DNA from: an uncultured Anaerolineales bacterium
GTDB lineage: Bacteria > Chloroflexota > Anaerolineae > B4-G1
DNA length: 58,280 bases
Direction: 5' to 3'
NCBI GenBank assembly: GCA_964568065.1
Contig: CAZMOT010000003.1
Location: forward strand, 1-58,280
Positions 38,488 to 47,030 of the stretch are shown in pieces. Position 1 is the stretch's first letter, and every line of letters begins with the position of its first letter. The position numbers were made by a program, and so were the translations under genes. The notes beneath the pieces are model-generated. The model was not told where the DNA came from. It did not search any database and was given only the letters and a program-made list of their open reading frames with translations.

Positions 38488-38883
38488 CTACCAGAGGATA
38501 CTCACCAAACCGGATTGAGTGATCAGTGCGTCACGAGTAAGCAGTTGGGCATTCCATCGCAGTGCCTCGGAGACGATCAGGCGATCGAAGATGTCGGGAA
38601 TGGCGGTCAAAGTCGCGCTACTCAGTACGGTCTCAACGGAGAGCGGTGGCAGATGACAGACCGAATCGCGTTGGAGGCTTTGGACTACCCGTTGCAGGTC
38701 AGCCAGAGTGGCTTGTACCCGGCCTTTCTCGATCACATGACCATCTCAGCTACCACAATCACGGGTATGACCAACGTGGCCTGGCCCATTCCCACTTGGG
38801 CCAATGCGGCGTGTGCCCGCGCACTCTGGTTTGGGTTGAAGAAATACCAGAGTATAACGTGTGTCGGCTACATAGGTGGGCAT
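38488..38883 (-). pseudogene. PIN-domain (VapC-like) toxin gene disrupted by at least two frameshifts
   Basis: I translated the minus strand by hand. ATG at 38883 gives MPTYVADT. After a frame change in an ACACAC run it reads HVILWYFFNPNQSARAHAALAQVGMGQATLVIPVIVVAEMVM-stop. After a second frame change it continues as the track ORF IEKGR...DIFDRLIVSEALRWNAQLLTRD...ILW. Confidence 0.65.
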
Positions 38884-39152
38884 TATTCTGCGTTTTCTGC
38901 AAGGTTGGATATCAGCGAGCGCCAATGTGTTTCCGCTGCTTCCTGAGTGATTGCTCCGATCTCTTAAGTTGGATCACCCAGCTCTTTCCAGATACCTTGC
39001 AGGGCCGCGAAATCACTGGCGGGTGTATCTTGTGCGTCGGGGAGGACGATCTCGACTAATAGGGGCGTCTCTTCGGGCAGAGGTAATGGCGTCAAGGGAT
39101 ATAAAATCCCCTGGCGATAGATCACGTTCACGGTAATGGTTGTTTGTGTCAT
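38883..39152 (-). pseudogene. DUF104-like antitoxin gene with an in-frame premature TAA
   Basis: MTQTTITVNVIYRQGILYPLTPLPLPEETPLLVEI is antitoxin-like. The TAA at 38964-38966 is followed in the same frame by 26 more sense codons (EIGAITQEAAETHWRSLISNLAENAE). These end in a TAATG stop/start overlap with the PIN gene. Confidence 0.55.
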
Positions 39153-39219
39153 AACTCACCTCGATTTGATTGTACACTATTCTTGTGGCGCTGTCAATGC
39201 ACTCGCCTGGGGATAGGCT

Positions 39220-40365
39220 GTGAGTCTGTGGATTGAGATCGCATATCAGAGTCTCGCCAGAGCCGGCGAAGATGTGTGTTCTGACGTGGTAAGAACCTCT
39301 CAAAACGAAGAGCGGTTTTTCGCTATCCTCGCCTGTGGCCCGCAGGGCGGCGCGGAGGGAAAAGCAAAGGCGACGCTGATAGCAGATAAGGCGGCTTCCA
39401 TGCTGGCACAAAGGACGTCGCTTGACCTTGACAAGGTGGTGGAGAACCTGCTCGCCGTCCTGCCCCAGGGCGAGTATGTGCCCTTTTCCATCCTCCAGGT
39501 TCTTGGGGGATGTCGGGCCTACGTGGTGGAATGTGACACCCCTCCCCTGTTTCTGACCCGTGGTGGACAACTGGTGTTGCTGCCCGTGCTGGAGGAAATC
39601 TCCCATGGGCATCTGATCCGCGAGTGCCGGTTCCTCCTGCGGGATGGCGATCACCTGGCGATGGTCAGCGAGGGCTACCTGCGCCCCCGGGGCTGGGGAT
39701 GGAGCTGGGCCGACGTCGCCGTCGCCGTGCGGCGTTGGACCGACACCCGCTGTGACGCCGACGAACTGTCGGGTGCGCTGGTGCGCACTTACCGCCGCCT
39801 GAACCCTGAAGCTCCCCGGCAGGATGTGACCATCGTCGCCATGCACATCCGGCCGGAGCGCCGCGCCACCGTCTGGACTGGCCCGCCGGCCGATCCGGCG
39901 CAGGACGAGGTGACGCTGGACAAGCTGATGGCCGAACAGGGTGCGCGCATTATCTGCGGCGACACGACCGCGCAGATAGCCGCCCGGCTGCTGGGGGCCA
40001 AACTGGAGTTGGAACCGCGCCCCGAGGACGGCACGGATAAAAGACATTCGTGGGCGGAGGTGCCACCCGTCGCGAACCTGGAGGGGGTGAGCCTGGTCAC
40101 GGAGGGGCTGGTGACGCTGGGTAAGGCGCGGGAACGGATGGACGGAGCGCAGCGGTTGCGCGACTTGCCCCGGGGCGAAGATGGTGCCACGCGCCTGGCT
40201 CGTGCGCTGCTGATCGCCGATAAGATACACTTCATCGTCGGCCTGGCGGTGAACCCGCAGCAGGCCGATGAATCCGGCACTGTCCCCTTGCGCCGGTTGG
40301 TGGTGGAGGAACTGATCCGCGCTCTGAAAGCAGAGGGAAAACTGGTATCGGTTGAGTATCTGTGA
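39220..40365 (+). CDS. SpoIIE/PP2C-like serine phosphatase family protein
   Basis: 381 aa with a GTG start. The N-terminal half (GEDVCSD...FAILACG...LLRDGDHLAMVSEG...TIVAMHI) follows the PP2C/SpoIIE pattern. The family call is from memory of similar proteins in hydrogenase/Nuo-like operons. Confidence 0.6.
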   Translation: MSLWIEIAYQSLARAGEDVCSDVVRTSQNEERFFAILACGPQGGAEGKAKATLIADKAASMLAQRTSLDLDKVVENLLAVLPQGEYVPFSILQVLGGCRAYVVECDTPPLFLTRGGQLVLLPVLEEISHGHLIRECRFLLRDGDHLAMVSEGYLRPRGWGWSWADVAVAVRRWTDTRCDADELSGALVRTYRRLNPEAPRQDVTIVAMHIRPERRATVWTGPPADPAQDEVTLDKLMAEQGARIICGDTTAQIAARLLGAKLELEPRPEDGTDKRHSWAEVPPVANLEGVSLVTEGLVTLGKARERMDGAQRLRDLPRGEDGATRLARALLIADKIHFIVGLAVNPQQADESGTVPLRRLVVEELIRALKAEGKLVSVEYL

Positions 40366-40404
40366 TCTATGGACGAGGAAATGAAGATGGAAGGTAAGCG
40401 TTCA

Positions 40405-40425
40405 CCCCTCCCACCCAGGGAGGGG
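40405..40425. repeat. G/C-rich palindromic element (CCCCTCCC-accca-GGGAGGGG)
   Basis: Perfect 8-bp inverted repeat. It is related in sequence to the element at 40512-40536. Confidence 0.6.
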
Positions 40426-40511
40426 CGGGTGGAGGGTAGAGTCCCGGCAACCTGGCAGGGATACTGCAAATTCAACCGGTATATGGGACGCAATCTTCAC
40501 CCCCCACCCCA

Positions 40512-40536
40512 CCCCTCCCCCTGACAGGGGGAGGGG
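40512..40536. repeat. G/C-rich palindromic element (CCCCTCCCCC-tgaca-GGGGGAGGGG)
   Basis: Perfect 10-bp inverted repeat, the second copy of the same motif within about 110 nt (REP-like). Confidence 0.6.
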
Positions 40537-40549
40537 GCGAACGGTTACG

Positions 40550-40791
40550 ATGGCAGTACGGTGTAATTTCTGTGGTAGCGATCTCTGCGAAGAAAGGAGA
40601 ATCGACTATACAGCTACAAAGGGAAATACTTGTTGGTGCCGAACACTCCTGTCGAGGTATGCCTCGACTGTGGAATGGTTTACTATGATGTGGCTGTTCT
40701 CAAGGAGATTGAGCGACGCTTCTTCGCCATTCACCACAAGACGGAGAAGCCAGATTGTTACATTCAAGTGCCAGCAGTGTCATACACTTAG
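40550..40791 (+). pseudogene. YgiT-type (MqsA N-terminal-like) zinc-finger protein gene with a frameshift
   Basis: Frame 1 reads MAVRCNFCGSDL.... Another frame then carries YSYKGKYLLVPNTPVEVCLDCGMVYYDVAVLKEIERRFFAIHHKTEKPDCYIQVPAVSYT-stop at 40789-40791. The frame break lies near the GAAGAAAGGAG run. Confidence 0.55.
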
Positions 40792-40848
40792 GATGATCAG
40801 GACACTGCAAAGGCCACGGCCAAGGCGAAGCGGCTGATCAGTTCGATC

Positions 40849-41311
40849 GTGGCGTGGATGGCCTATCAGGAGGCACTGGAAGCGCGTACGGAGCCGGTCA
40901 CCCAGGCGGTGCTCATCGCCGGCATCCAGGCTGCGTTGACGATAGCAGATGCTGGCTATCCGGTCTACCTGGTCGAGCGGGAGCCTTCCATCGGCGGGCA
41001 CATGGCCCAACTGGACAAGACCTTCCCCACCCTCGACTGTAGCACCTGAATTCTCGGCTCCAACCAAGATGATGGATGCCGGTCGGCATCCCAAGATCAC
41101 GCTCCTGAGCCACAGCGAGGTCGAGCAAGTTTCGGGCTACGTGGGCAACTTCAAGGTCAAAGCGCGCAAGAAGGCCCGCTACGTGGACGAGGAGAAGTGC
41201 ACCGGCTGCGGTATTTGCCGGATCGAGTGCATGACAAGACGTATCCCGCGCCTGAAACTGATCAAGATGGGTGAGATTAGCGTTGGGGAGAGGAGGCCCG
41301 GAGAACAATGA
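40849..41311 (+). pseudogene. hdrA: Relic of an HdrA N-terminus (FAD-binding part), carrying TGA 41047-41049, a +1 frameshift, a lost GxGxxG and a truncation
   Basis: Frame 1 reads ...[52 protein letters not shown]. The +1 frame reads APTKMMDAGRHPKITLLSHSEVEQVSGYVGNFKVKARKKARYVDEEKCTGCGIC. The canonical VIGGG segment is missing. The relic ends by overlapping the nuoE-like start. Confidence 0.6.
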
Positions 41312-41853
41312 GTGAGATTCCGGTAAGCGAGATTCTCGACCGCTATCCGGCGGACAGAACTTCCAGTCTGGCTGTCCTGGAGGACATCCAGGCGGAGTAC
41401 AAGTACTTGCCCCGCGAGGCTCTGGAAGAGACAGCCGAACGGCTGCATATGTACCTGAGCGAGGTCTACCAGATCGCCACCTTCTTCCGGGCCTTCAGCC
41501 TGGAGCCAAAGGGTGAACACATGATCAAAGTGTGCCTGGGCACAGCCTGTCACGTTGCTGGCGGCCCACGCCTCCTCGACCAACTGGAGAGGGATCTGGG
41601 CATCAAGGCGGGGGGCACAACGCCCGACGGAAAGTTCTCCCTCGAGGCGGTCCGTTGCGTGGGTGCCTGTGCTCTGAGTCCTCTAATCTTGGTGGATGAG
41701 GAGCCCCATAGCAATATGACACCCGCCAAGGCCAGCGAGCTCATTGCGAAGATGGCCAGCGCGGGGGAAAAGGTGGGGGTTACCGAGGCGCCAACGGCTG
41801 ATGTGTCTTCGCGAACGTCGGTAGATCTTTCGGGTGTTCCGCCCACGGGATAG
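41308..41853 (+). CDS. NuoE/HydC-like [2Fe-2S] subunit of an NADH-dependent (bifurcating-type) complex
   Basis: IQAEYKYLP..., CLGTACHVAGG and VRCVGACALSP motifs. Confidence 0.85.
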   Translation: MSEIPVSEILDRYPADRTSSLAVLEDIQAEYKYLPREALEETAERLHMYLSEVYQIATFFRAFSLEPKGEHMIKVCLGTACHVAGGPRLLDQLERDLGIKAGGTTPDGKFSLEAVRCVGACALSPLILVDEEPHSNMTPAKASELIAKMASAGEKVGVTEAPTADVSSRTSVDLSGVPPTG

Positions 41854-41870
41854 GTAAAGGAGAGAGTTCG

Positions 41871-42242
41871 ATGCCAAAACTCAAGAGTCTCGAAGAACTG
41901 CACAAGTTGCGTCAGCAACTGCAAAAAGACATCAAGGCCCGCACTGAGACGAGCACAACCATCACCGTGGGCGTGGGCACCTGCGGTATCTCGACCGGGG
42001 CACGCGAAGTGATGCAATCAATCCTCGCAGAGTTGGAGGCACGCGATATTGATGCTCACGTGACCACCACTGGTTGTATTGGCATGTGCTCCAAGGAGCC
42101 CCTGGTGGATATCCAGCAGGGCGATGAACTGCGCGTCACCTACGGCAACGTCACCCCGGTGATAGTGCCCCACCTGATCGAGGAACACCTGGTGCAGGGC
42201 AACGTGGTGACCGAATGGGTCATCGGACGAGTAGGAGGGTAG
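41871..42242 (+). CDS. Thioredoxin-like [2Fe-2S] ferredoxin (HydD-like)
   Basis: AAGGAG RBS. VGVGTCGISTGA and TGCIGMCSKEPLV motifs. Confidence 0.75.
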   Translation: MPKLKSLEELHKLRQQLQKDIKARTETSTTITVGVGTCGISTGAREVMQSILAELEARDIDAHVTTTGCIGMCSKEPLVDIQQGDELRVTYGNVTPVIVPHLIEEHLVQGNVVTEWVIGRVGG

Positions 42243-42252
42243 GAGGGATAAA

Positions 42253-44049
42253 ATGGCTGAACGATATCGTGTTGACGTGCTGGTCTGCACCTGCCCGGCC
42301 TGTACAAAGGCCGGCGGGCCAGAAATGCAGCAGGCCCTGGAAGCAGAGGTGGAACGGCGTGGTCTAGCAAATGAGGTACGGGGGGTTGAAACGGGCAGCC
42401 GTGGTTTCTGCTCCATGGGGCCTATCGTCATCATCCAGCCCGAAGGTATCCTGTACTGCCAGGTGCACGCTGCGGATGTACCGGAGCTGGTGGAGGAGAC
42501 GCTGGTCAAGGGACGCATCGTCGAGCGTCTGACGTACAAAGAGCCAGCGACCCACAAGGCCGTACCTCACTACAGCGAGATTCCCTTCTACGGCAAGCAG
42601 ATGCGCGTCGTACTGCGCAACTGCGGGCTGATCAACCCCCAGAATATCGAGGAGTATATCGCCGTCGGCGGCTACCAGGCGTTGGGTAAAGCGCTCACCT
42701 CAATGACCCCCGAGGAGGTTATCGAGGAGGTCAAGAAATCGGGGTTACGAGGCCGTGGTGGGGCTGGCTTCCCCACCGGCCGCAAGTGGGAGTTCACCCG
42801 CGATGCCCCAGGCGACGTCAAGTACATCGTCGCTAACGGTGACGAGGGCGACCCCGGCGCCTTCATGGATCGCAGCCTGATGGAGGGTGACCCGCACGCT
42901 ATCCTGGAGGGCATGACCATCGGTGCCTACGCCATCGGCGCGCATGAAGGCCATATCTACGTGCGCGACGAGTACCCCCTGGCGCTGCGAAATCTGAACA
43001 TCGCGATGGAGCAGGCACGGGAGTATGGCCTGCTGGGCCAGGACATCCTGGGATCGGAGTTCGACTTCGACATCGAGATCACCCGAGGCGCTGGCGCCTT
43101 CGTCTGCGGCGAGGAGACGGCGCTGCTGGCCTCTATCGAGGGCCATGCCGGTGATCCGCGGCCGCGACCGCCTTACCCAGCCCAAAGCGGCCTGTGGGGC
43201 AGGCCAACCAACATCAACAACGTCAAGTCCTGGGCCAATATCCCGGTCATTATCAACCGAGGTGCAGATTGGTTCAACCAGATCGGCACCGAAACTAGTA
43301 GAGGGACAATGATCTTCTCGCTGGTGGGCAAGGTCAACAACGCCGGGTTGGTCGAAGTGCCTATGGGTATCACGTTGCGGGAGTTGATCTTCGACATTGG
43401 TGAGGGCATCCGGGATGGCAAGCAGTTCAAGGCGGTGCAGACGGGTGGGCCATCGGGCGGCTGCATCCCGGAGAAACTGCTCGACCTGCCGATTGACTAC
43501 GAACATCTGAAAGAGGCGGGCTCAATCATGGGCTCCGGAGGCATGATCGTCATGGACGAGAACACCTGCATGGTGGACATCGCCCGTTACTTCCTCGACT
43601 TCCTCAAGGACGAATCGTGCGGCAAGTGCACGCCCTGCCGTGAGGGGATCAAGCAAATGCTGGCTATCCTGACCCGCATCGCCGAGGGGGAGGGGGAAAT
43701 GGCCGATCTGCAGGTGCTGGAGTCGCTGGCCCACGTGGTGAAAGACACCTCGCTGTGCGGCCTGGGCCAAACGGCACCCAACCCCGTCCTCAGCACGCTG
43801 CGCTATTTCCGCGATGAGTACGTGGCCCACATTGTAGACCACAACTGCCCGGCTGGTGTCTGTGAGGCGCTGATCGAGTACTACATCATCGAGGATCTGT
43901 GCACCGGCTGCGGAGTTTGCCTCCACAAGTGCCCCCAGGAGGCGATCAGCGGGGAGAAGAAAGAGCTACACGTCATTGACCAGGCGTTGTGTATCAAGTG
44001 CGGCGTCTGCCGTGATCTATGCAAATTCGACGCAGTCGCTGTGCGGTAG
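42253..44049 (+). CDS. NuoF/HydB-like NADH- and FMN-binding subunit with an N-terminal Trx-like [2Fe-2S] domain and a C-terminal 2x[4Fe-4S] ferredoxin domain
   Basis: GLRGRGGAGFPTGRKW (FMN site), ANGDEGDPGAF, ESCGKCTPCREG, CTGCGVCLHKCP and CIKCGVCRDLC. Confidence 0.88.
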   Translation: MAERYRVDVLVCTCPACTKAGGPEMQQALEAEVERRGLANEVRGVETGSRGFCSMGPIVIIQPEGILYCQVHAADVPELVEETLVKGRIVERLTYKEPATHKAVPHYSEIPFYGKQMRVVLRNCGLINPQNIEEYIAVGGYQALGKALTSMTPEEVIEEVKKSGLRGRGGAGFPTGRKWEFTRDAPGDVKYIVANGDEGDPGAFMDRSLMEGDPHAILEGMTIGAYAIGAHEGHIYVRDEYPLALRNLNIAMEQAREYGLLGQDILGSEFDFDIEITRGAGAFVCGEETALLASIEGHAGDPRPRPPYPAQSGLWGRPTNINNVKSWANIPVIINRGADWFNQIGTETSRGTMIFSLVGKVNNAGLVEVPMGITLRELIFDIGEGIRDGKQFKAVQTGGPSGGCIPEKLLDLPIDYEHLKEAGSIMGSGGMIVMDENTCMVDIARYFLDFLKDESCGKCTPCREGIKQMLAILTRIAEGEGEMADLQVLESLAHVVKDTSLCGLGQTAPNPVLSTLRYFRDEYVAHIVDHNCPAGVCEALIEYYIIEDLCTGCGVCLHKCPQEAISGEKKELHVIDQALCIKCGVCRDLCKFDAVAVR

Positions 44050-44059
44050 GAGAAGACCC

Positions 44060-45868
44060 ATGGTTACTTTCACCATTGATGGACAAGAAGTTCAAGGCGA
44101 GGAAGGGCAGACCATCCTTGAGGTCGCTCAGCAGGTCGGGATCGAAATACCTACCCTCTGCTATCATCCTCTTCTCACGCCCTACGGCGGCTGTCGGCTG
44201 TGCACGGTGGAGATCGTCGCCAGGGGCAGGACAGGGCTGCAGACCGCCTGCACTTACCCGGCCGAGGAAGGGTTGGAGGTGCTGACCCGTTCCCCCGGCG
44301 TCGTCGAGGCGCGCAAGGTGATCCTGGGGCTGCTGCTTTCGCGCACGCCCAACGTCGAGGTGATGCAGGACCTGGCACGGGAGTACGGCATCACGGAACC
44401 ACCCTTCCCCACCGACACCCCCGACGAGCGGTGCATCCTCTGCGGCCACTGCGTGCGCACGTGCGACGAACTGGTCCAAGCCCACGTGCTGAACTTCTCC
44501 GAGCGGGGCATCGAACGGCGGGTGGGGCCGCCCTTCCTGGAAAAGACCCGCCAGTGCATCGGCTGCGGTGCCTGCACTATCGTCTGCCCCACCGGCGCCA
44601 TCGAGATCGCTCTGGAAGAAGCGGGGGTCTACCAGGCAAAGCCGCTGGGGCCGACTTCGGCCATCTATGTGCCTTCGCTGCAAGCGGTGCCGCAGGTGCC
44701 GGTCATTGATACCGACTCTTGTATTCGCTTCCGCCAGAACGATCGCACCGAGGGCGAGATCGCGGACGCCTGCGCGGCCTGCCAGATGCTGTGTGAGGCT
44801 GACGCGATCAACTTCGACCAGCAGGACGAGATCGTCGAGCTGGACGTGGGGGCCATCATCGTCGCTACCGGCTTCGAGATGTGGGATCCCACCCAGCTTT
44901 CCCAGTATTCCTACGGCAAGTCGCCCAACATCATCACCGGTATGGAGTTTGAGCGCCTCTCCAATGCCGGCGGGCTGACGGGCGGCAAGATCTTGCTCGC
45001 CGACGGCCGGGAGCCCGAGCGCGTGGCCATCATCCACTGCGTCGGCAGCCGTGACCACAACGCGCATCCCTACTGCTCCCGCATCTGCTGCATGTACTCG
45101 CTCAAACAGGCCCACCTGGTGCACGATAAAACCGGGGCCAAGGTGTACGAGTTCTACGTGGACATGCGCACCTTCGGCAAGGCCTACGAGGAGTTCTACG
45201 AGCGGGTGCAGAAGGAGAAGGGCATCTGTATGGTGCGCGGCCGGGGCGCCAGGGTAGAGGTGCTACCAGACGGCAAACTGCGCGTCAGGGGAGAGGATGC
45301 TAACCTGGGCCAGTTAGTGCACGTGGACGTGGACATGGTCGTGCTCAGCACGGCCATCGAGGCCCCGCACGACGCCGACCGGGTGGCGGCGCTCTTCGGC
45401 CTGGGCCGCACGGAGGACGGCTTCTTCGCCGAGGCGCACCCCAAACTGCGCCCGGTGGAGACCAACACCGATGGGGTATTCCTGGCCGGCGTTGCCCAAG
45501 GCCCCAAAGACGTGCCGGATACAGTGGCTCACGCCGGTGCGGCGGCCTCCATGGCCCTGGCTTTGCTGGGTAAGGGGGAAGTGACCATCTCGCCCGCCGT
45601 CGCCTGCGTGAATGAGAAACTCTGCTCCGCCTGCAAGACCTGCATCGCGCTCTGCCCCTACACCGCCATCAGTTTCATCGAGGAGATCGGTGAAAAGGGC
45701 GTGGCCCGCGTCAACGAGGTGCTGTGCAAGGGCTGCGGCACCTGCGCAGCAGCCTGCCCCTCCGGCGCCATCACGGCGCGGCATTTCACGGATCAGCAGA
45801 TCCTGGCTCAGATCGAGGGGCTGTTCCGCATGCCTGCGGCGCAACCTGCTGAAGGAGTACGCTCATGA
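44060..45868 (+). CDS. hdrA: Fusion of a NuoG/HydA-N-terminal-like Fe-S module with an HdrA-like flavoprotein body that lacks the HdrA N-terminal dinucleotide-binding segment
   Basis: N-terminus FTIDGQEV...PTLCYHP...GGCRLCTVE is a [2Fe-2S] motif. CILCGHCVRTC and CIGCGACTIVCPTGAI follow. The HdrA-like part reads AIYVPSLQAVP..., GAIIVATGFE, IIHCVGSRD, CSRICCMY and GVFLAGVAQGPKD, with a C-terminal CSACKTCIALCP...CKGCGTCAAACP. Confidence 0.78.
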   Translation: MVTFTIDGQEVQGEEGQTILEVAQQVGIEIPTLCYHPLLTPYGGCRLCTVEIVARGRTGLQTACTYPAEEGLEVLTRSPGVVEARKVILGLLLSRTPNVEVMQDLAREYGITEPPFPTDTPDERCILCGHCVRTCDELVQAHVLNFSERGIERRVGPPFLEKTRQCIGCGACTIVCPTGAIEIALEEAGVYQAKPLGPTSAIYVPSLQAVPQVPVIDTDSCIRFRQNDRTEGEIADACAACQMLCEADAINFDQQDEIVELDVGAIIVATGFEMWDPTQLSQYSYGKSPNIITGMEFERLSNAGGLTGGKILLADGREPERVAIIHCVGSRDHNAHPYCSRICCMYSLKQAHLVHDKTGAKVYEFYVDMRTFGKAYEEFYERVQKEKGICMVRGRGARVEVLPDGKLRVRGEDANLGQLVHVDVDMVVLSTAIEAPHDADRVAALFGLGRTEDGFFAEAHPKLRPVETNTDGVFLAGVAQGPKDVPDTVAHAGAAASMALALLGKGEVTISPAVACVNEKLCSACKTCIALCPYTAISFIEEIGEKGVARVNEVLCKGCGTCAAACPSGAITARHFTDQQILAQIEGLFRMPAAQPAEGVRS

Positions 45869-46401
45869 ACAGTACGGACTCTGAACCGAGAATCGTCGGC
45901 TTTCTGTGCAACTGGTGTACCTACGCCGCAGCCGACACGGCCGGTATCTCCCGCATGGAGCAGCCGTCCAACGTGGACATCATCCGCGTGATGTGCTCGG
46001 GGCGCATAGACCCGGTCTTTATCCTCAAGGCCTTCGCCGAGGGAGCCGACGTCCTCATCGTCTCAGGCTGCCACCCGCCCGGCGATTGTCACTATCAGGA
46101 GGGCAACTACAAGACCTTCCGCCGCATGCCGCTGGTGGAGGCGCTGCTGGCGCAGTACGGCATCGAGAAGGAACGCTTCCACTGGGGCTGGATCTCCGGC
46201 GCGGAGGCCCCTCAGTGGGCGCAACTAGTGCGCGAGTTCACCGTCCAGGTACACGACCTGGGGCCGGATGCGCCACCCGCTGAACACAACATCCTGGGGC
46301 TAATCCACAAGGTCGGTCTGGAGATCGATGGCAATGTGATCAGCAGCCGTGGAAAGGCTATGGACATCGTGGATATGCTGGGCGGCAAGACCATCCGGTA
46401 G
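45865..46401 (+). CDS. mvhD: MvhD/FlpD-like (methyl-viologen-reducing hydrogenase delta subunit family) protein
   Basis: ATGA overlap with the upstream gene. IVGFLCNWCTYAAAD...IRVMCSGRIDP...GADVLIVSGCHPGDCHY. Confidence 0.85.
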   Translation: MNSTDSEPRIVGFLCNWCTYAAADTAGISRMEQPSNVDIIRVMCSGRIDPVFILKAFAEGADVLIVSGCHPPGDCHYQEGNYKTFRRMPLVEALLAQYGIEKERFHWGWISGAEAPQWAQLVREFTVQVHDLGPDAPPAEHNILGLIHKVGLEIDGNVISSRGKAMDIVDMLGGKTIR

Positions 46402-46467
46402 ATTAGTCAGGGAGACCAATCTACCGATTTACCAGCTTACCAATCTACCTTTTCGAGAGCGATTGCT

Positions 46468-46944
46468 TTGAAGATATTGGTGCTGGGCCTGGGTAATCCG
46501 ATCCTGAGCGACGATGGAGTCGGGATTCACGTGGCGCGAGCAGTGGCGAAGCACTGTTCACAGGACGACGTGACTCTCACCGAAGCGAGCGTCGGAGGGC
46601 TGCGGTTGCTGGACGTCGTCGCTGGCTACGAACGGATCATCATGGTGGATGCAATTCAGACCCGCGACGGCAAACCGGGCGATCTTTATCGTCTGTCCCC
46701 CAATGACTTGAAGGTATCGTTGCATTCGAGCTCGACGCACGATCTTTCCCTGCCCGGCGCACTGGCCCTGGGTAGGAATCTGGGCATGACGTTGCCCGAC
46801 GATGAAGCCATCGTCATCATCGCCGTCGAGGTGGAGGACGTGCTGACGTTCGGTGAGGGATGCACGCCTGCGGTGGTAGATGCCATCCACCGGGCCGTGG
46901 AGGCAGTACTGGCTGAACTGGAGGATTTAAGATCGGCGGATTGA
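46468..46944 (+). CDS. [NiFe]-hydrogenase maturation endopeptidase family protein (HyaD/HycI/FrhD-like)
   Basis: TTG start. MKILVLGLGNPILSDDGVGIHVA...IIMVDA...HSSSTHDLSL. Confidence 0.78.
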   Translation: MKILVLGLGNPILSDDGVGIHVARAVAKHCSQDDVTLTEASVGGLRLLDVVAGYERIIMVDAIQTRDGKPGDLYRLSPNDLKVSLHSSSTHDLSLPGALALGRNLGMTLPDDEAIVIIAVEVEDVLTFGEGCTPAVVDAIHRAVEAVLAELEDLRSAD

Positions 46945-47030
46945 TGATTTGGGAACTTGATTGTCCGACTTCCGCGATCTGTGCTGCTGCGCCCCTGCCA
47001 AATCCGAAATCATAACAGAAGGCACACTGA

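What the first reader, a model, noticed from the sequence alone, without database searches (positions are those of the whole stretch)
40849..41311. HdrA N-terminal relic with TGA at what I recall as the Cys/Sec position and a GGUC-loop hairpin downstream
Seen: ...[25 protein letters not shown](41047-41049)-IL, then one extra G (41056/41057) shifts the frame. After the shift the text continues APTKMMDAGRHPKITLLSHSEVEQVSGYVGNFKVKARKKARYVDEEKCTGCGIC. The dinucleotide-binding GGG of canonical VLVIGGGIAG is missing (AVLIAGIQ). The ORF stops about 30 codons later, at the nuoE-like start. The hairpin gGATGCC-GGTC-GGCATCc (41074-41091) places its loop 31 nt after the TGA. Established knowledge, from memory and needing verification by alignment: HdrA is a selenoprotein in Methanococcales and some Deltaproteobacteria, with Sec replacing the second Cys of the DCSxC motif. 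Bacterial SECIS elements are hairpins shortly downstream of UGA, and the E. coli fdhF apical loop is GGUC. Inference: the ancestor of this fragment was probably a Sec-containing HdrA. The fragment now carries multiple lesions and is most likely a pseudogene left by the rearrangement that created the downstream fusion.
Basis: partly seen in the sequence, partly recalled or inferred. Interest (0 to 1): 0.65.

Follow-up and report, generated by a model that had tools for sequence, protein, structure and literature searches.

The report
Decayed selenocysteine HdrA front-half gene
This is a broken, recently dead copy of a small selenium-containing enzyme gene (the detached front half of HdrA) that is intact in related marine-sediment Anaerolineae; it still carries its selenocysteine codon and RNA hairpin, so it is a real but ordinary pseudogene of a known selenoprotein family.

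Summary
Window 40798-41311 is homologous to HdrA residues about 108-281. TGA 41047-49 lies at the Cys197/Sec position. The hairpin GGATGCC-GGTC-GGCATCC is at 41074-91, the GGG motif is missing, and the frame shifts.

Related Anaerolineae MAGs settle the origin. A 281-codon "HdrA-N" gene normally sits directly upstream of nuoE, a ferredoxin gene, nuoF, a NuoG-N::HdrA-C fusion and mvhD. In 12 of 14 copies from other organisms it has the same in-frame TGA. All 12, plus one Cys-form copy, keep a nucleotide-identical hairpin that meets every constraint of the bacterial SECIS model. Sec ancestry is therefore strongly supported.

The window copy is dead:
- it lacks codons 1-107
- it has a 15-nt deletion that removes the GGG motif
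- it has a net 4-nt insertion (a CCAA duplication, not one extra G)
- a substitution replaces an otherwise invariant Pro

Six independent metagenome assemblies carry the same lesions, so they are not assembly errors.

The front half is not debris from the fusion event; it is a working subunit elsewhere that decayed later in this species. mvhG and most of mvhA were also deleted here.

Known kind, low to moderate interest.

The parts
40798..41046 (+). Relic segment A: homolog of HdrA-N residues ~108-195 (linker plus the first part of the thioredoxin-reductase-like FAD domain). It has no start codon of its own, and codons 1-107 are missing.
   Evidence: tblastn of P0001 aa 108-207 against 40798-41082; alignment A1; no trace of codons 1-107 in the window.
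40913..40914 (+). Site of a 15-nt in-frame deletion that removes (V/I)VGGG of the GxGxxG dinucleotide-binding motif.
   Evidence: DNA alignment A2 with L002 and L001; protein alignment A1. Present in exact contigs from runs of four studies and in six assemblies.
41047..41049 (+). In-frame TGA: the ancestral selenocysteine codon, at the position of HdrA Cys197 (second Cys of DCSxC).
   Evidence: Aligns to Cys197 of 5ODC_A and to X197 of 9sfi_A. TGA at the same codon in 12 of 14 copies from other organisms. Every contig at least 80% alike laid across it in runs X1 and X4 keeps TGA.
41059..41065 (+). Frame-shifting lesion: TCCAACC where orthologs have CCC. This is a net +4 nt (CCAA tandem duplication 41060-41067) with loss of the invariant Pro.
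   Evidence: The exact path is present in Logan contigs of X5, X23 and X24 at flank depth and in assemblies L015-L020.
41074..41091 (+). Retained bacterial SECIS hairpin: 7-bp stem GGAUGCC/GGCAUCC with loop GGUC. It lies 31 nt after UGA here and 27 nt after it in intact orthologs.
   Evidence: Folds at -11.5 kcal/mol. Invariant at all synonymous sites in 12 of 12 Sec-type copies. Meets the bSECIS model constraints quoted in PMC13188914.
41066..41311 (+). Relic segment B (+1 frame): homolog of HdrA-N residues 201-281, with the first Cx2Cx2Cx3C motif of the inserted ferredoxin domain and the native tail GERRPGE. The stop TGA overlaps the nuoE ATG, and the nuoE ribosome-binding site GGAGG lies inside it.
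   Evidence: tblastn 80% identity to P0001 aa 201-281; same end in all split orthologs.
40550..40791 (+). Context: a frameshifted YgiT-like zinc-finger (antitoxin-like) gene that occupies the place of the lost hdrA-N 5' end. It is absent from orthologous loci.
   Evidence: Three-frame translation; no hit in L001-L014. Naming it YgiT-like rests on motif recall; it was not scanned against Pfam.
41308..45868 (+). Context: intact downstream genes of the operon. These are the NuoE-like gene (41308-41853), a thioredoxin-like ferredoxin gene (41871-42242), the NuoF-like gene (42253-44049) and the NuoG-N::HdrA-C fusion (44060-45868).
   Evidence: Pfam; full-length matches to L001 orthologs; dN/dS not clearly raised.
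45865..46401 (+). Context: mvhD fused in frame at about codon 131 to a 46-codon remnant of mvhA (aa 118-163; 46258-46395). mvhG and the rest of mvhA are deleted. An orphan HycI protease gene follows at 46468-46944.
   Evidence: tblastn; Pfam; relatives L001, L004, L007 and L008 keep mvhG, and where the contig reaches it (L001, L004) mvhA.

Best explanation
Window 40798-41311 is a recently pseudogenised copy of the selenocysteine-type 'HdrA-N' gene.

In related Anaerolineae, hdrA is split by a NuoE, ferredoxin, NuoF and NuoG-N module inserted within the coding region of HdrA's inserted ferredoxin domain. The front half (281 codons) holds the N-terminal Fe-S domain, the Rossmann/FAD part and the first ferredoxin motif. 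It is a separate, conserved subunit gene. The back half is fused to a NuoG-like N-terminus.

The front-half gene is a selenoprotein gene. UGA at codon 196 (equivalent to Cys197 of methanogen HdrA) is recoded by a SECIS hairpin GGAUGCC-GGUC-GGCAUCC 27 nt downstream.

In this species the gene was inactivated by:
- loss of its first ~107 codons, replaced by toxin-antitoxin-like DNA
- a 15-nt deletion of the GxGxxG glycines
- a CCAA duplication that shifts the frame
- a Pro-to-Ser change

The UGA and the SECIS are inherited features and are not lesions. The same locus also lost mvhG and most of mvhA. The Hdr/Mvh part of the operon is therefore decaying, while the nuoE, nuoF, fusion and mvhD reading frames are still open.

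Shown: homology, the lesions, their reproducibility, and the Sec signature in orthologs. Inferred: that UGA was actually read as Sec, that the relic gives no functional product, and the order of events.
For: (1) Homology: the read-through fragment hits ~280-aa HdrA-N proteins at E = 5e-74 with 73% identity. It hits solved HdrA at E = 2e-104 when the intact ortholog L003 is the query.

(2) Intact split orthologs with identical gene order occur in L001-L010. Unsplit full-length Sec-HdrA occurs in L011-L013.

(3) TGA sits at codon 196 in 12 of 14 copies from other organisms. Codons 204-208, which form the hairpin, are single-codon in all 12 Sec copies. Only 4 of the other 115 conserved degenerate columns are single-codon.

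(4) The bSECIS constraints are met: loop 4 nt, stem 7 bp, GG as the first loop bases, spacing 27 or 31 nt, -11.5 kcal/mol.

(5) The TGA aligns to Cys197 of 5ODC_A and to X197 of 9sfi_A.

(6) Lesions relative to orthologs are shown. The relic deviates at 5 of 92 otherwise invariant residues, against 0-3 for intact Sec copies.

(7) dN/dS of the relic against L003 is 0.24, against 0.09-0.13 among intact copies.

(8) The lesions are identical in six independent assemblies and are supported by k-mers in three runs.

(9) The mvhA remnant fused to mvhD shows a second decay event in the same operon.
Against: - None lies in the window or in 10 kb beyond its 3' end.
- The downstream genes, including the HdrA-C fusion that should need this subunit, show no clear relaxation of selection. 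Exact-match contigs for them occur in a metatranscriptome. Either the loss is very recent or the function is supplied from elsewhere.
- The retained 169 codons carry no further stops and are still 85% identical to L003. Evidence for neutral drift is therefore modest.
- There is no experimental evidence that any of these UGAs is read as Sec.
Confidence: 0.88

Rival explanations
1. The gene is functional and the apparent lesions are assembly or sequencing errors: a working split Sec-HdrA-N subunit, mis-assembled in a region shared by many community members.
For: The stretch 40980-41200 is highly conserved among co-occurring organisms. Logan contig graphs break there. In runs X1, X4 and X7 no exact contig covers 41041-41063.
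Against: - Six independent assemblies from different samples and assemblers carry 40300-41400 at 100% or 99.9% identity with no gaps.
- Exact 83-92-nt unitigs span the TGA and the 4-nt insertion in X5, X23 and X24 at flank depth.
- The 5' truncation junction and the 15-nt deletion lie on exact contigs from four studies.
- Four separate lesions of different kinds cannot be read errors.
Confidence: 0.03
2. The TGA is a plain nonsense mutation of a Cys codon (one more lesion), and the hairpin is a by-product of coding for MDAGRHP.
For: TGC or TGT to TGA needs one base change. A Cys-form ortholog (L001) encodes the same peptide with the same hairpin.
Against: - TGA stands at this codon in 12 copies from different MAGs, in frames that are otherwise open for 281 or more codons.
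- Five consecutive degenerate codons of the hairpin never vary, while neighbouring synonymous sites vary freely.
- The Cys paralog L002b, free of the UGA, has lost the hairpin.
- HdrA is an established selenoprotein family (PMC1794560), and a non-standard residue stands at the aligned position 197 of the solved chain 9sfi_A.
Confidence: 0.03
3. The relic is debris of the ancestral rearrangement that split hdrA and created the NuoG::HdrA-C fusion. On this view it has been functionless ever since.
For: Unsplit Sec-HdrA exists in the same class (L011-L013). The break point lies inside the inserted ferredoxin domain, so an insertion event did create the split.
Against: - In eight distinct split loci (L001-L010; L006 is the same contig as L002) the front half is intact, conserved and ends at the same native stop. 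dN/dS is about 0.1.
- About 7,900 proteins of the searched length range (about 95-300 aa), most of the listed ones 270-300 aa, match at E <= 0.001.
- The window copy is 85% identical to L003 with dS 0.35, which is far too similar for debris as old as the split.
Confidence: 0.02
4. The remnant keeps a residual role. Its 3' part (an 80-codon ORF from ATG 41069, carrying one Cx2Cx2Cx3C motif) is still translated. It would either supply half of the split ferredoxin domain to the fusion protein, or merely provide the ribosome-binding site and translational coupling for nuoE.
For: - The ORF is open to the native stop, which overlaps the nuoE ATG.
- GGAGG lies 8 nt upstream of that ATG, inside the relic.
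- The downstream genes look intact and may be transcribed.
- Gene callers list 63-aa and 80-aa ORFs here.
Against: - No promoter-like site is found on the + strand in 40200-41450.
- There is no evidence of translation.
- Without the Rossmann half the HdrA-C domain cannot bind FAD in the canonical way (established knowledge of thioredoxin-reductase folds).
- Keeping a ribosome-binding site is a passive effect and does not amount to a function of the relic as a gene.
Confidence: 0.07

Closest known systems
Sec-containing HdrA of Methanococcales and of Deltaproteobacteria/Firmicutes (HdrA selenoprotein family; Zhang et al. 2006, PMC1794560; solved Cys form 5ODC, chain 9sfi_A with a non-standard residue at 197)
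   Same: - Same protein family (E = 2e-104 to 5ODC_A for the intact ortholog).
- Same recoded position (Cys197 of the DCSxC motif). According to PMC9012536 this residue supplies a ligand to the N-terminal [4Fe-4S] cluster of the partner HdrA.
- In bacteria, a SECIS hairpin lies just downstream of the UGA.
   Different: - Here the family member is only the front 281 codons of HdrA, encoded apart from the rest.
- The host is Anaerolineae (Chloroflexota).
- The window copy is dead: no N-terminal domain, no GGG motif and a shifted frame.
Split 'hdrA_N-unknown-hdrA_C' arrangements noted in Deltaproteobacteria (PMC1794560), and the BamGHI-BamF-BamE coupling of class II benzoyl-CoA reductase (bioRxiv 10.64898/2026.04.10.717634)
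   Same: An HdrA-type flavoprotein is combined with a NuoE/NuoF/NuoG-like (HydBC-type) NADH module and an MvhD-like adaptor in one operon. hdrA is interrupted by other genes.
   Different: - No BamB/BamC tungsten enzyme was seen among the ORFs scanned around this locus.
- Here the NuoG-like part is fused to the HdrA back half.
- In Bam the selenocysteine is in BamF (MvhD-like); here it is in the HdrA front half.
- Relatives of this locus carry MvhAG hydrogenase genes instead.
Selenoprotein loss events and remnant ('fossil') SECIS elements in Cys homologs (PMC1794560, Figure 4 and Tables 2 and 4)
   Same: - A selenoprotein gene is lost in one lineage while sister lineages keep it.
- A Cys-form ortholog (L001, TGC) still carries the unchanged SECIS hairpin.
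- A Cys paralog (L002b) has lost the hairpin.
   Different: Here the loss is caught in the act, as a recognisable pseudogene that still holds both the UGA and the SECIS. Usually it is only inferred from absence.

Membership tests
HdrA (heterodisulfide reductase subunit A), N-terminal and thioredoxin-reductase-like part | Significant sequence homology to HdrA over the FAD-domain segment | tested here: met
   E = 5e-74 to HdrA-N proteins. Intact ortholog L003 hits 5ODC_A residues 1-256 at E = 2e-104. Pfam gives only weak FAD_oxidored and Fer4 hits for the fragments.
HdrA (heterodisulfide reductase subunit A), N-terminal and thioredoxin-reductase-like part | N-terminal domain with its Cys ligands for a [4Fe-4S] cluster (residues 1 to about 107) | tested here: not met
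   Absent. Homology starts at 40798, which corresponds to about residue 108. No remnant is found anywhere in the window.
HdrA (heterodisulfide reductase subunit A), N-terminal and thioredoxin-reductase-like part | GxGxxG dinucleotide-binding motif (VxGGGxAG) | tested here: not met
   A 15-nt deletion leaves AVLIAGIQ.
HdrA (heterodisulfide reductase subunit A), N-terminal and thioredoxin-reductase-like part | Uninterrupted reading frame | tested here: not met
   A net +4 nt at 41059-41065 shifts the frame. It is reproduced in six assemblies.
Bacterial selenoprotein gene (Sec-UGA plus bSECIS) | In-frame UGA aligned with Cys (or Sec) of homologs | tested here: met
   Aligns to invariant Cys86 of alignment A1, to Cys197 of 5ODC_A and to X197 of 9sfi_A.
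Bacterial selenoprotein gene (Sec-UGA plus bSECIS) | bSECIS model: 3-9 nt apical loop, 4-16 bp upper stem, G in the first two loop positions, 16-37 nt from UGA to the loop, MFE <= -7.5 kcal/mol (PMC13188914) | tested here: met
   Loop GGUC (4 nt), 7-bp stem, spacing 31 nt in the window and 27 nt in orthologs, -11.5 kcal/mol. bSECISearch itself was not available.
Bacterial selenoprotein gene (Sec-UGA plus bSECIS) | UGA and hairpin conserved in orthologs beyond what coding requires | tested here: met
   12 of 12 Sec-type copies have TGA and an identical 23-nt ATGATGGATGCCGGTCGGCATCC. All five degenerate hairpin codons are single-codon, against 4 of 115 elsewhere.
Bacterial selenoprotein gene (Sec-UGA plus bSECIS) | Sec machinery (selA, selB, selC/tRNA-Sec, selD) in the same genome | not testable with these tools
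There is no tRNA-Sec and no sel gene among the ORFs scanned in the window or in the gene kb past its 3' end.
Pseudogene | Several disabling lesions relative to intact orthologs, reproducible in independent data | tested here: met
   5' truncation, GGG deletion, frameshift and Pro>Ser. Six assemblies and three runs agree.
Pseudogene | Relaxed selection on the remnant | tested here: inconclusive
   dN/dS is 0.24 against 0.09-0.13, and the relic deviates at 5 of 92 invariant sites against 0-3. The direction is right, but this rests on 168 codons with no formal test.
Class II benzoyl-CoA reductase (BamBCDEFGHI) | BamB/BamC tungsten aldehyde-oxidoreductase-type catalytic subunits in the cluster | tested here: not met
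   None of the ORFs from 35.9 to 48 kb scanned with Pfam is of that type. Only the NuoEFG-like, HdrA and MvhD modules resemble Bam.

The most novel reading that the evidence does not exclude
The NuoE, NuoF, NuoG-N::HdrA-C and MvhD genes remain functional in this species after losing both the FAD/Sec front half of HdrA and the MvhAG hydrogenase.

Two routes are possible. An HdrA-N paralog encoded elsewhere could complement in trans; tandem Sec and Cys copies do exist in relative L002. Alternatively the complex could have been re-purposed as a non-bifurcating NADH-linked electron-transfer module.

If so, this would be a natural dissection of a two-module (HydBC-type plus HdrA-type) bifurcating enzyme.
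Probability: 0.2. Interest if true: 0.5.

Novelty: new member of a known kind. Interest (0 to 1): 0.3.

Why it matters
By itself the window feature is a pseudogene and changes little. Its value is as a pointer.

- Marine-sediment Anaerolineae carry a conserved Sec-type split HdrA front-half gene. Public gene calls cut it into 195-aa and 80-aa ORFs, so the selenoproteome and the Hdr-type bifurcation capacity of this abundant sediment group are under-annotated.
- The invariant GGAUGCC-GGUC-GGCAUCC hairpin is a clean search handle for these genes.
- The locus set holds all stages of Sec dynamics side by side: an intact Sec form, a tandem Sec and Cys pair, a Cys form with a fossil SECIS, and this dead Sec copy.
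- The Sec replaces Cys197. A published structural reading (PMC9012536) assigns that residue as an inter-subunit Fe-S cluster ligand, which is an unusual role for selenium and worth testing.

Tried and rejected
The key check, whether the same genome has selA, selB, selC, selD, other TGA selenoproteins or further hdrA copies, could not be made.
- Rfam and ARAGORN on the window found only tRNA-Pro.
- Folding 41040-41110 as a whole gave z = -0.1, which is not significant. The significance of the hairpin comes from comparative conservation, not from its energy.
- In runs X1, X4 and X7 no exact contig covered 41041-41063. This briefly suggested an assembly artefact. A targeted word search then found runs X5, X23 and X24 with the exact path, and six assemblies confirmed it.
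- I tried to use strain SNPs that postdate the lesions as a test of purifying selection on the downstream genes. It failed: the populations are nearly clonal. The only cluster of 12 SNPs lies in 100 nt of mvhD and looks like recombination or a chimeric assembly.
- dN/dS for the downstream genes was uninformative because dS is near saturation.
- Walking along the contig gave 10 kb past the window's 3' end, with no Sec genes there. The look-up at the 5' end found nothing on record.
- The promoter and terminator scan of 40200-41450 found nothing on the + strand.
- Rejected readings: a single extra G as the frameshift, a nonsense origin of the TGA, and a programmed frameshift. The last has no conserved slippery context, and orthologs have no shift.
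Full report
**What is in the sequence**

- One frame gives ...[75 protein letters not shown], then TGA (41047-41049), then ILG.
- The +1 frame continues ...KMMDAGRHPKITLLSHSEVEQVSGYVGNFKVKARKKARYVDEEKCTGCGICRIEC...GERRPGEQ. It stops at 41309-41311, overlapping the ATG of a NuoE-like gene.
- The hairpin GGATGCC-GGTC-GGCATCC lies at 41074-41091, with its loop 31 nt after the TGA.

Downstream lie, in order:
- a NuoE-like gene
- a small thioredoxin-like ferredoxin gene
- a NuoF-like gene
- a 602-aa fusion of a NuoG-like N-terminus with the back half of HdrA
- MvhD
- a HycI-type hydrogenase protease

**What the fragment is homologous to**

I searched with the fragment read through the TGA and across the shift. 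It matched about 7,900 proteins of the searched length range at E <= 0.001; the best was 281 aa, 73% identical, E = 5e-74.

Aligned with them, the window copy has:
- no counterpart of the first ~107-114 residues (GVYxCxCGxNIA..., the N-terminal Fe-S domain)
- a gap of five residues, (V/I)VGGG, in the dinucleotide-binding motif
- its TGA at an invariant Cys (DCSxC)
- one extra residue at the frame shift

Its C-terminal tail (RIPxLKLIKxGExSxGERRPGE) is the family's native end. Two contigs encoding the best hits show the same gene order as the window: HdrA-N, NuoE, Fd, NuoF, NuoG-N::HdrA-C, MvhD, then MvhG and MvhA.

**The decisive comparison**

On contig L002 (a Thermoflexales MAG), gene callers list a 195-aa and an 80-aa ORF just upstream of the intact 281-aa Cys-type gene. 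Together these are one 281-codon frame with an in-frame TGA. Its sequence around the TGA is almost letter for letter that of the window: tgaattctcggccccaagatgatggatgccggtcggcatccc.

A scan of species-representative genomes with the window's fusion protein returned 12 loci, 11 of them Anaerolineae/Chloroflexota MAGs and one weak archaeal hit. The closest were 82-83% identical. The window's own genome was not returned.

Across all fetched loci there are 14 HdrA-N or HdrA copies from other organisms.
- Twelve have TGA at codon 196 in an otherwise open frame (192 in L012a). All twelve carry ATGATGGATGCCGGTCGGCATCC unchanged.
- No other gene of the operon has a conserved in-frame stop.
- In a codon alignment of the 12 Sec-type copies, 121 columns have a conserved degenerate amino acid. 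Only 10 of these use a single codon. Six of the ten are the TGA and the five consecutive hairpin codons GAT GCC GGT CGG CAT.

That last pattern is constraint at the RNA level. The hairpin meets every constraint of the published bacterial SECIS model (PMC13188914):
- 3-9 nt loop
- 4-16 bp stem
- G in the first two loop positions
- 16-37 nt from the UGA
- MFE <= -7.5 kcal/mol; the observed value is -11.5 kcal/mol

The TGA aligns with Cys197 of Methanothermococcus HdrA (5ODC_A) and with a non-standard residue (X) at position 197 of chain 9sfi_A. HdrA is an established selenoprotein family in Methanococcales, Deltaproteobacteria and Firmicutes (PMC1794560). Marine Anaerolineae are reported to have Sec-containing formate dehydrogenases (PMC5736913). 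The inference that this fragment descends from a Sec-containing HdrA is therefore strongly supported.

**Why the origin story is wrong**

An insertion did split hdrA at some point. L011, L012 and L013 carry unsplit, full-length Sec-HdrA followed by mvhD, and the break point lies inside the inserted ferredoxin domain.

But in eight distinct split loci the front half is an intact, conserved gene (dN/dS about 0.1). It is a working subunit there. The window copy decayed later. Its retained 169 codons are still 85% identical to L003, with dS 0.35.

**The lesions**

Against the orthologs:
1. Homology begins at 40798. Codons 1-107 and the start codon are gone, and a frameshifted YgiT-like zinc-finger gene (40550-40791), absent from all relatives, occupies the space.
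2. A 15-nt deletion lies between 40913 and 40914.
3. GGC CCC AAG has become GGC TCCAACC AAG (41059-41065). This is a net +4 nt, best read as a CCAA duplication, with the invariant Pro lost. It is not a single extra G.
4. Five substitutions fall at residues that are invariant in all intact copies, against 0-3 for intact Sec-type copies.

dN/dS against L003 is 0.24, against 0.09-0.13 among intact copies. This is a modest sign of relaxed constraint and fits a young pseudogene.

**Are the lesions real?**

Logan contigs of runs from four studies carry exact contigs across the truncation junction and the 15-nt deletion. In X1, X4 and X7 no exact contig covered 41041-41063, so I searched for that stretch alone. 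Runs X5, X23 and X24 hold it, with exact 83-92-nt unitigs at the depth of the flanks.

Independently, six metagenome assemblies carry 40300-41400 at 100% or 99.9% identity without gaps:
- JGI 3300008517
- JGI 3300005823
- JGI 3300008516
- JGI 3300011118
- ENA ERZ25073496
- ENA ERZ27251135

The pseudogene is therefore present in this species in every assembly that carries the locus. In X1 and X4, every contig at least 80% alike laid across 41047-41049 keeps TGA. Sec-type copies dominate among the relatives in these sediments.

**State of the rest of the operon**

The window's MvhD (178 aa) is MvhD residues 1 to about 131 joined in frame to residues 118-163 of the hydrogenase large subunit MvhA. 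mvhG and the rest of mvhA are missing, although L001, L004, L007 and L008 keep mvhG, and where the contig reaches it mvhA. The HycI protease gene is thus an orphan.

The NuoE-, Fd-, NuoF-, fusion- and MvhD-like frames are full length. Their dN/dS against relatives is not clearly raised. A metatranscriptome from one holder sample has exact-match contigs on several of them at low depth. That is weak evidence, since DNA carry-over is possible. Strain SNPs were too few for a selection test.

The loss is either recent or compensated. For the same reason the presence of selA, selB, selC and selD is untested. None is in the window or in 10 kb beyond its 3' end.

**Comparison with what is known**

The family (Sec-HdrA), the recoding signal (bacterial SECIS), selenoprotein loss and fossil SECIS elements in Cys homologs are all described (PMC1794560).

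The combination of a NuoEFG-like module with an HdrA-type module and an MvhD-like adaptor resembles BamGHI-BamF-BamE of class II benzoyl-CoA reductase (bioRxiv 10.64898/2026.04.10.717634). No BamB/C-type subunit was seen among the ORFs scanned here.

According to PMC9012536, Cys197 is a ligand, from the partner protomer, of the N-terminal [4Fe-4S] cluster. The Sec would then sit at an Fe-S ligand position. That is the paper's structural reading, and I did not test it here.

Earlier notes of this scan on other genomes reached the same view of Sec-type and split HdrA in Anaerolineae.

**Verdict**

The feature is a dead member of a known selenoprotein family.

Noticed in passing
L002:7400-9109 (GCA_034434835.1, DAOTXX010000108): Tandem paralogs of the HdrA front-half gene. 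A Sec-type copy (TGA at codon 196, SECIS intact; called as 195-aa plus 80-aa ORFs) is directly followed by a Cys-type copy (P0002) whose hairpin is destroyed. Their 3' thirds are nearly identical, which suggests gene conversion. This recalls the Sec/Cys isoenzyme pairs of Methanococcus.
   Followed up: partly
L001:10586-10640: A Cys-type ortholog (TGC) that still carries the unchanged SECIS hairpin GGATGCCGGTCGGCATCC. It is probably a recent Sec-to-Cys conversion with a fossil SECIS.
   Followed up: partly
window 45865-46401 (remnant 46258-46395): mvhD is fused in frame to a 46-codon remnant of the [NiFe] hydrogenase large subunit gene mvhA (aa 118-163). mvhG and the rest of mvhA are deleted, which leaves the HycI maturation protease gene (46468-46944) without a substrate gene nearby.
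   Followed up: yes
L003-L013 vs window 40798-45868: hdrA occurs in two layouts within Anaerolineae: unsplit full-length Sec-HdrA plus mvhD (L011, L012 twice, L013), and a split form with NuoE, Fd, NuoF and NuoG-N inserted in the inserted ferredoxin domain (L001-L010). The half-ferredoxin motifs end up on two polypeptides. About 7,900 proteins of the searched length range match the front half, so the split form is widespread.
   Followed up: partly
window 38488-40791: An island of decayed toxin-antitoxin-like genes interrupts the cluster. It holds a PIN-like toxin whose peptide is spread over several frames (38488-38950, minus strand), a DUF104-like antitoxin ORF (38964-39152, minus strand), a frameshifted YgiT-like zinc-finger gene (40550-40791) and a perfect G-rich palindrome CCCCTCCCCC-TGAC-AGGGGGAGGGG near 40514-40538. 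These family names rest on motif recall and were not scanned against Pfam.
   Followed up: partly
L016 vs window 45966-46065: All 12 differences between two otherwise identical 9.5-kb assemblies fall within 100 nt of mvhD. This looks like recombination with a relative, or a chimeric assembly in a conserved stretch.
   Followed up: no
L003:8516-9998 and downstream of 11806: The closest relative has about 1.5 kb of extra DNA between nuoF and the fusion gene, and no mvhD, mvhG or mvhA after the fusion. Its Sec-type HdrA-N is nonetheless intact. The hydrogenase module is therefore being lost repeatedly in this clade.
   Followed up: no
window 39200-47000, run X21: A sediment metatranscriptome holds exact-match contigs on the 381-aa gene and on the nuoE/fd, nuoF and fusion genes at depth 3-9. 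This is weak evidence that the remaining operon genes are transcribed in situ.
   Followed up: partly
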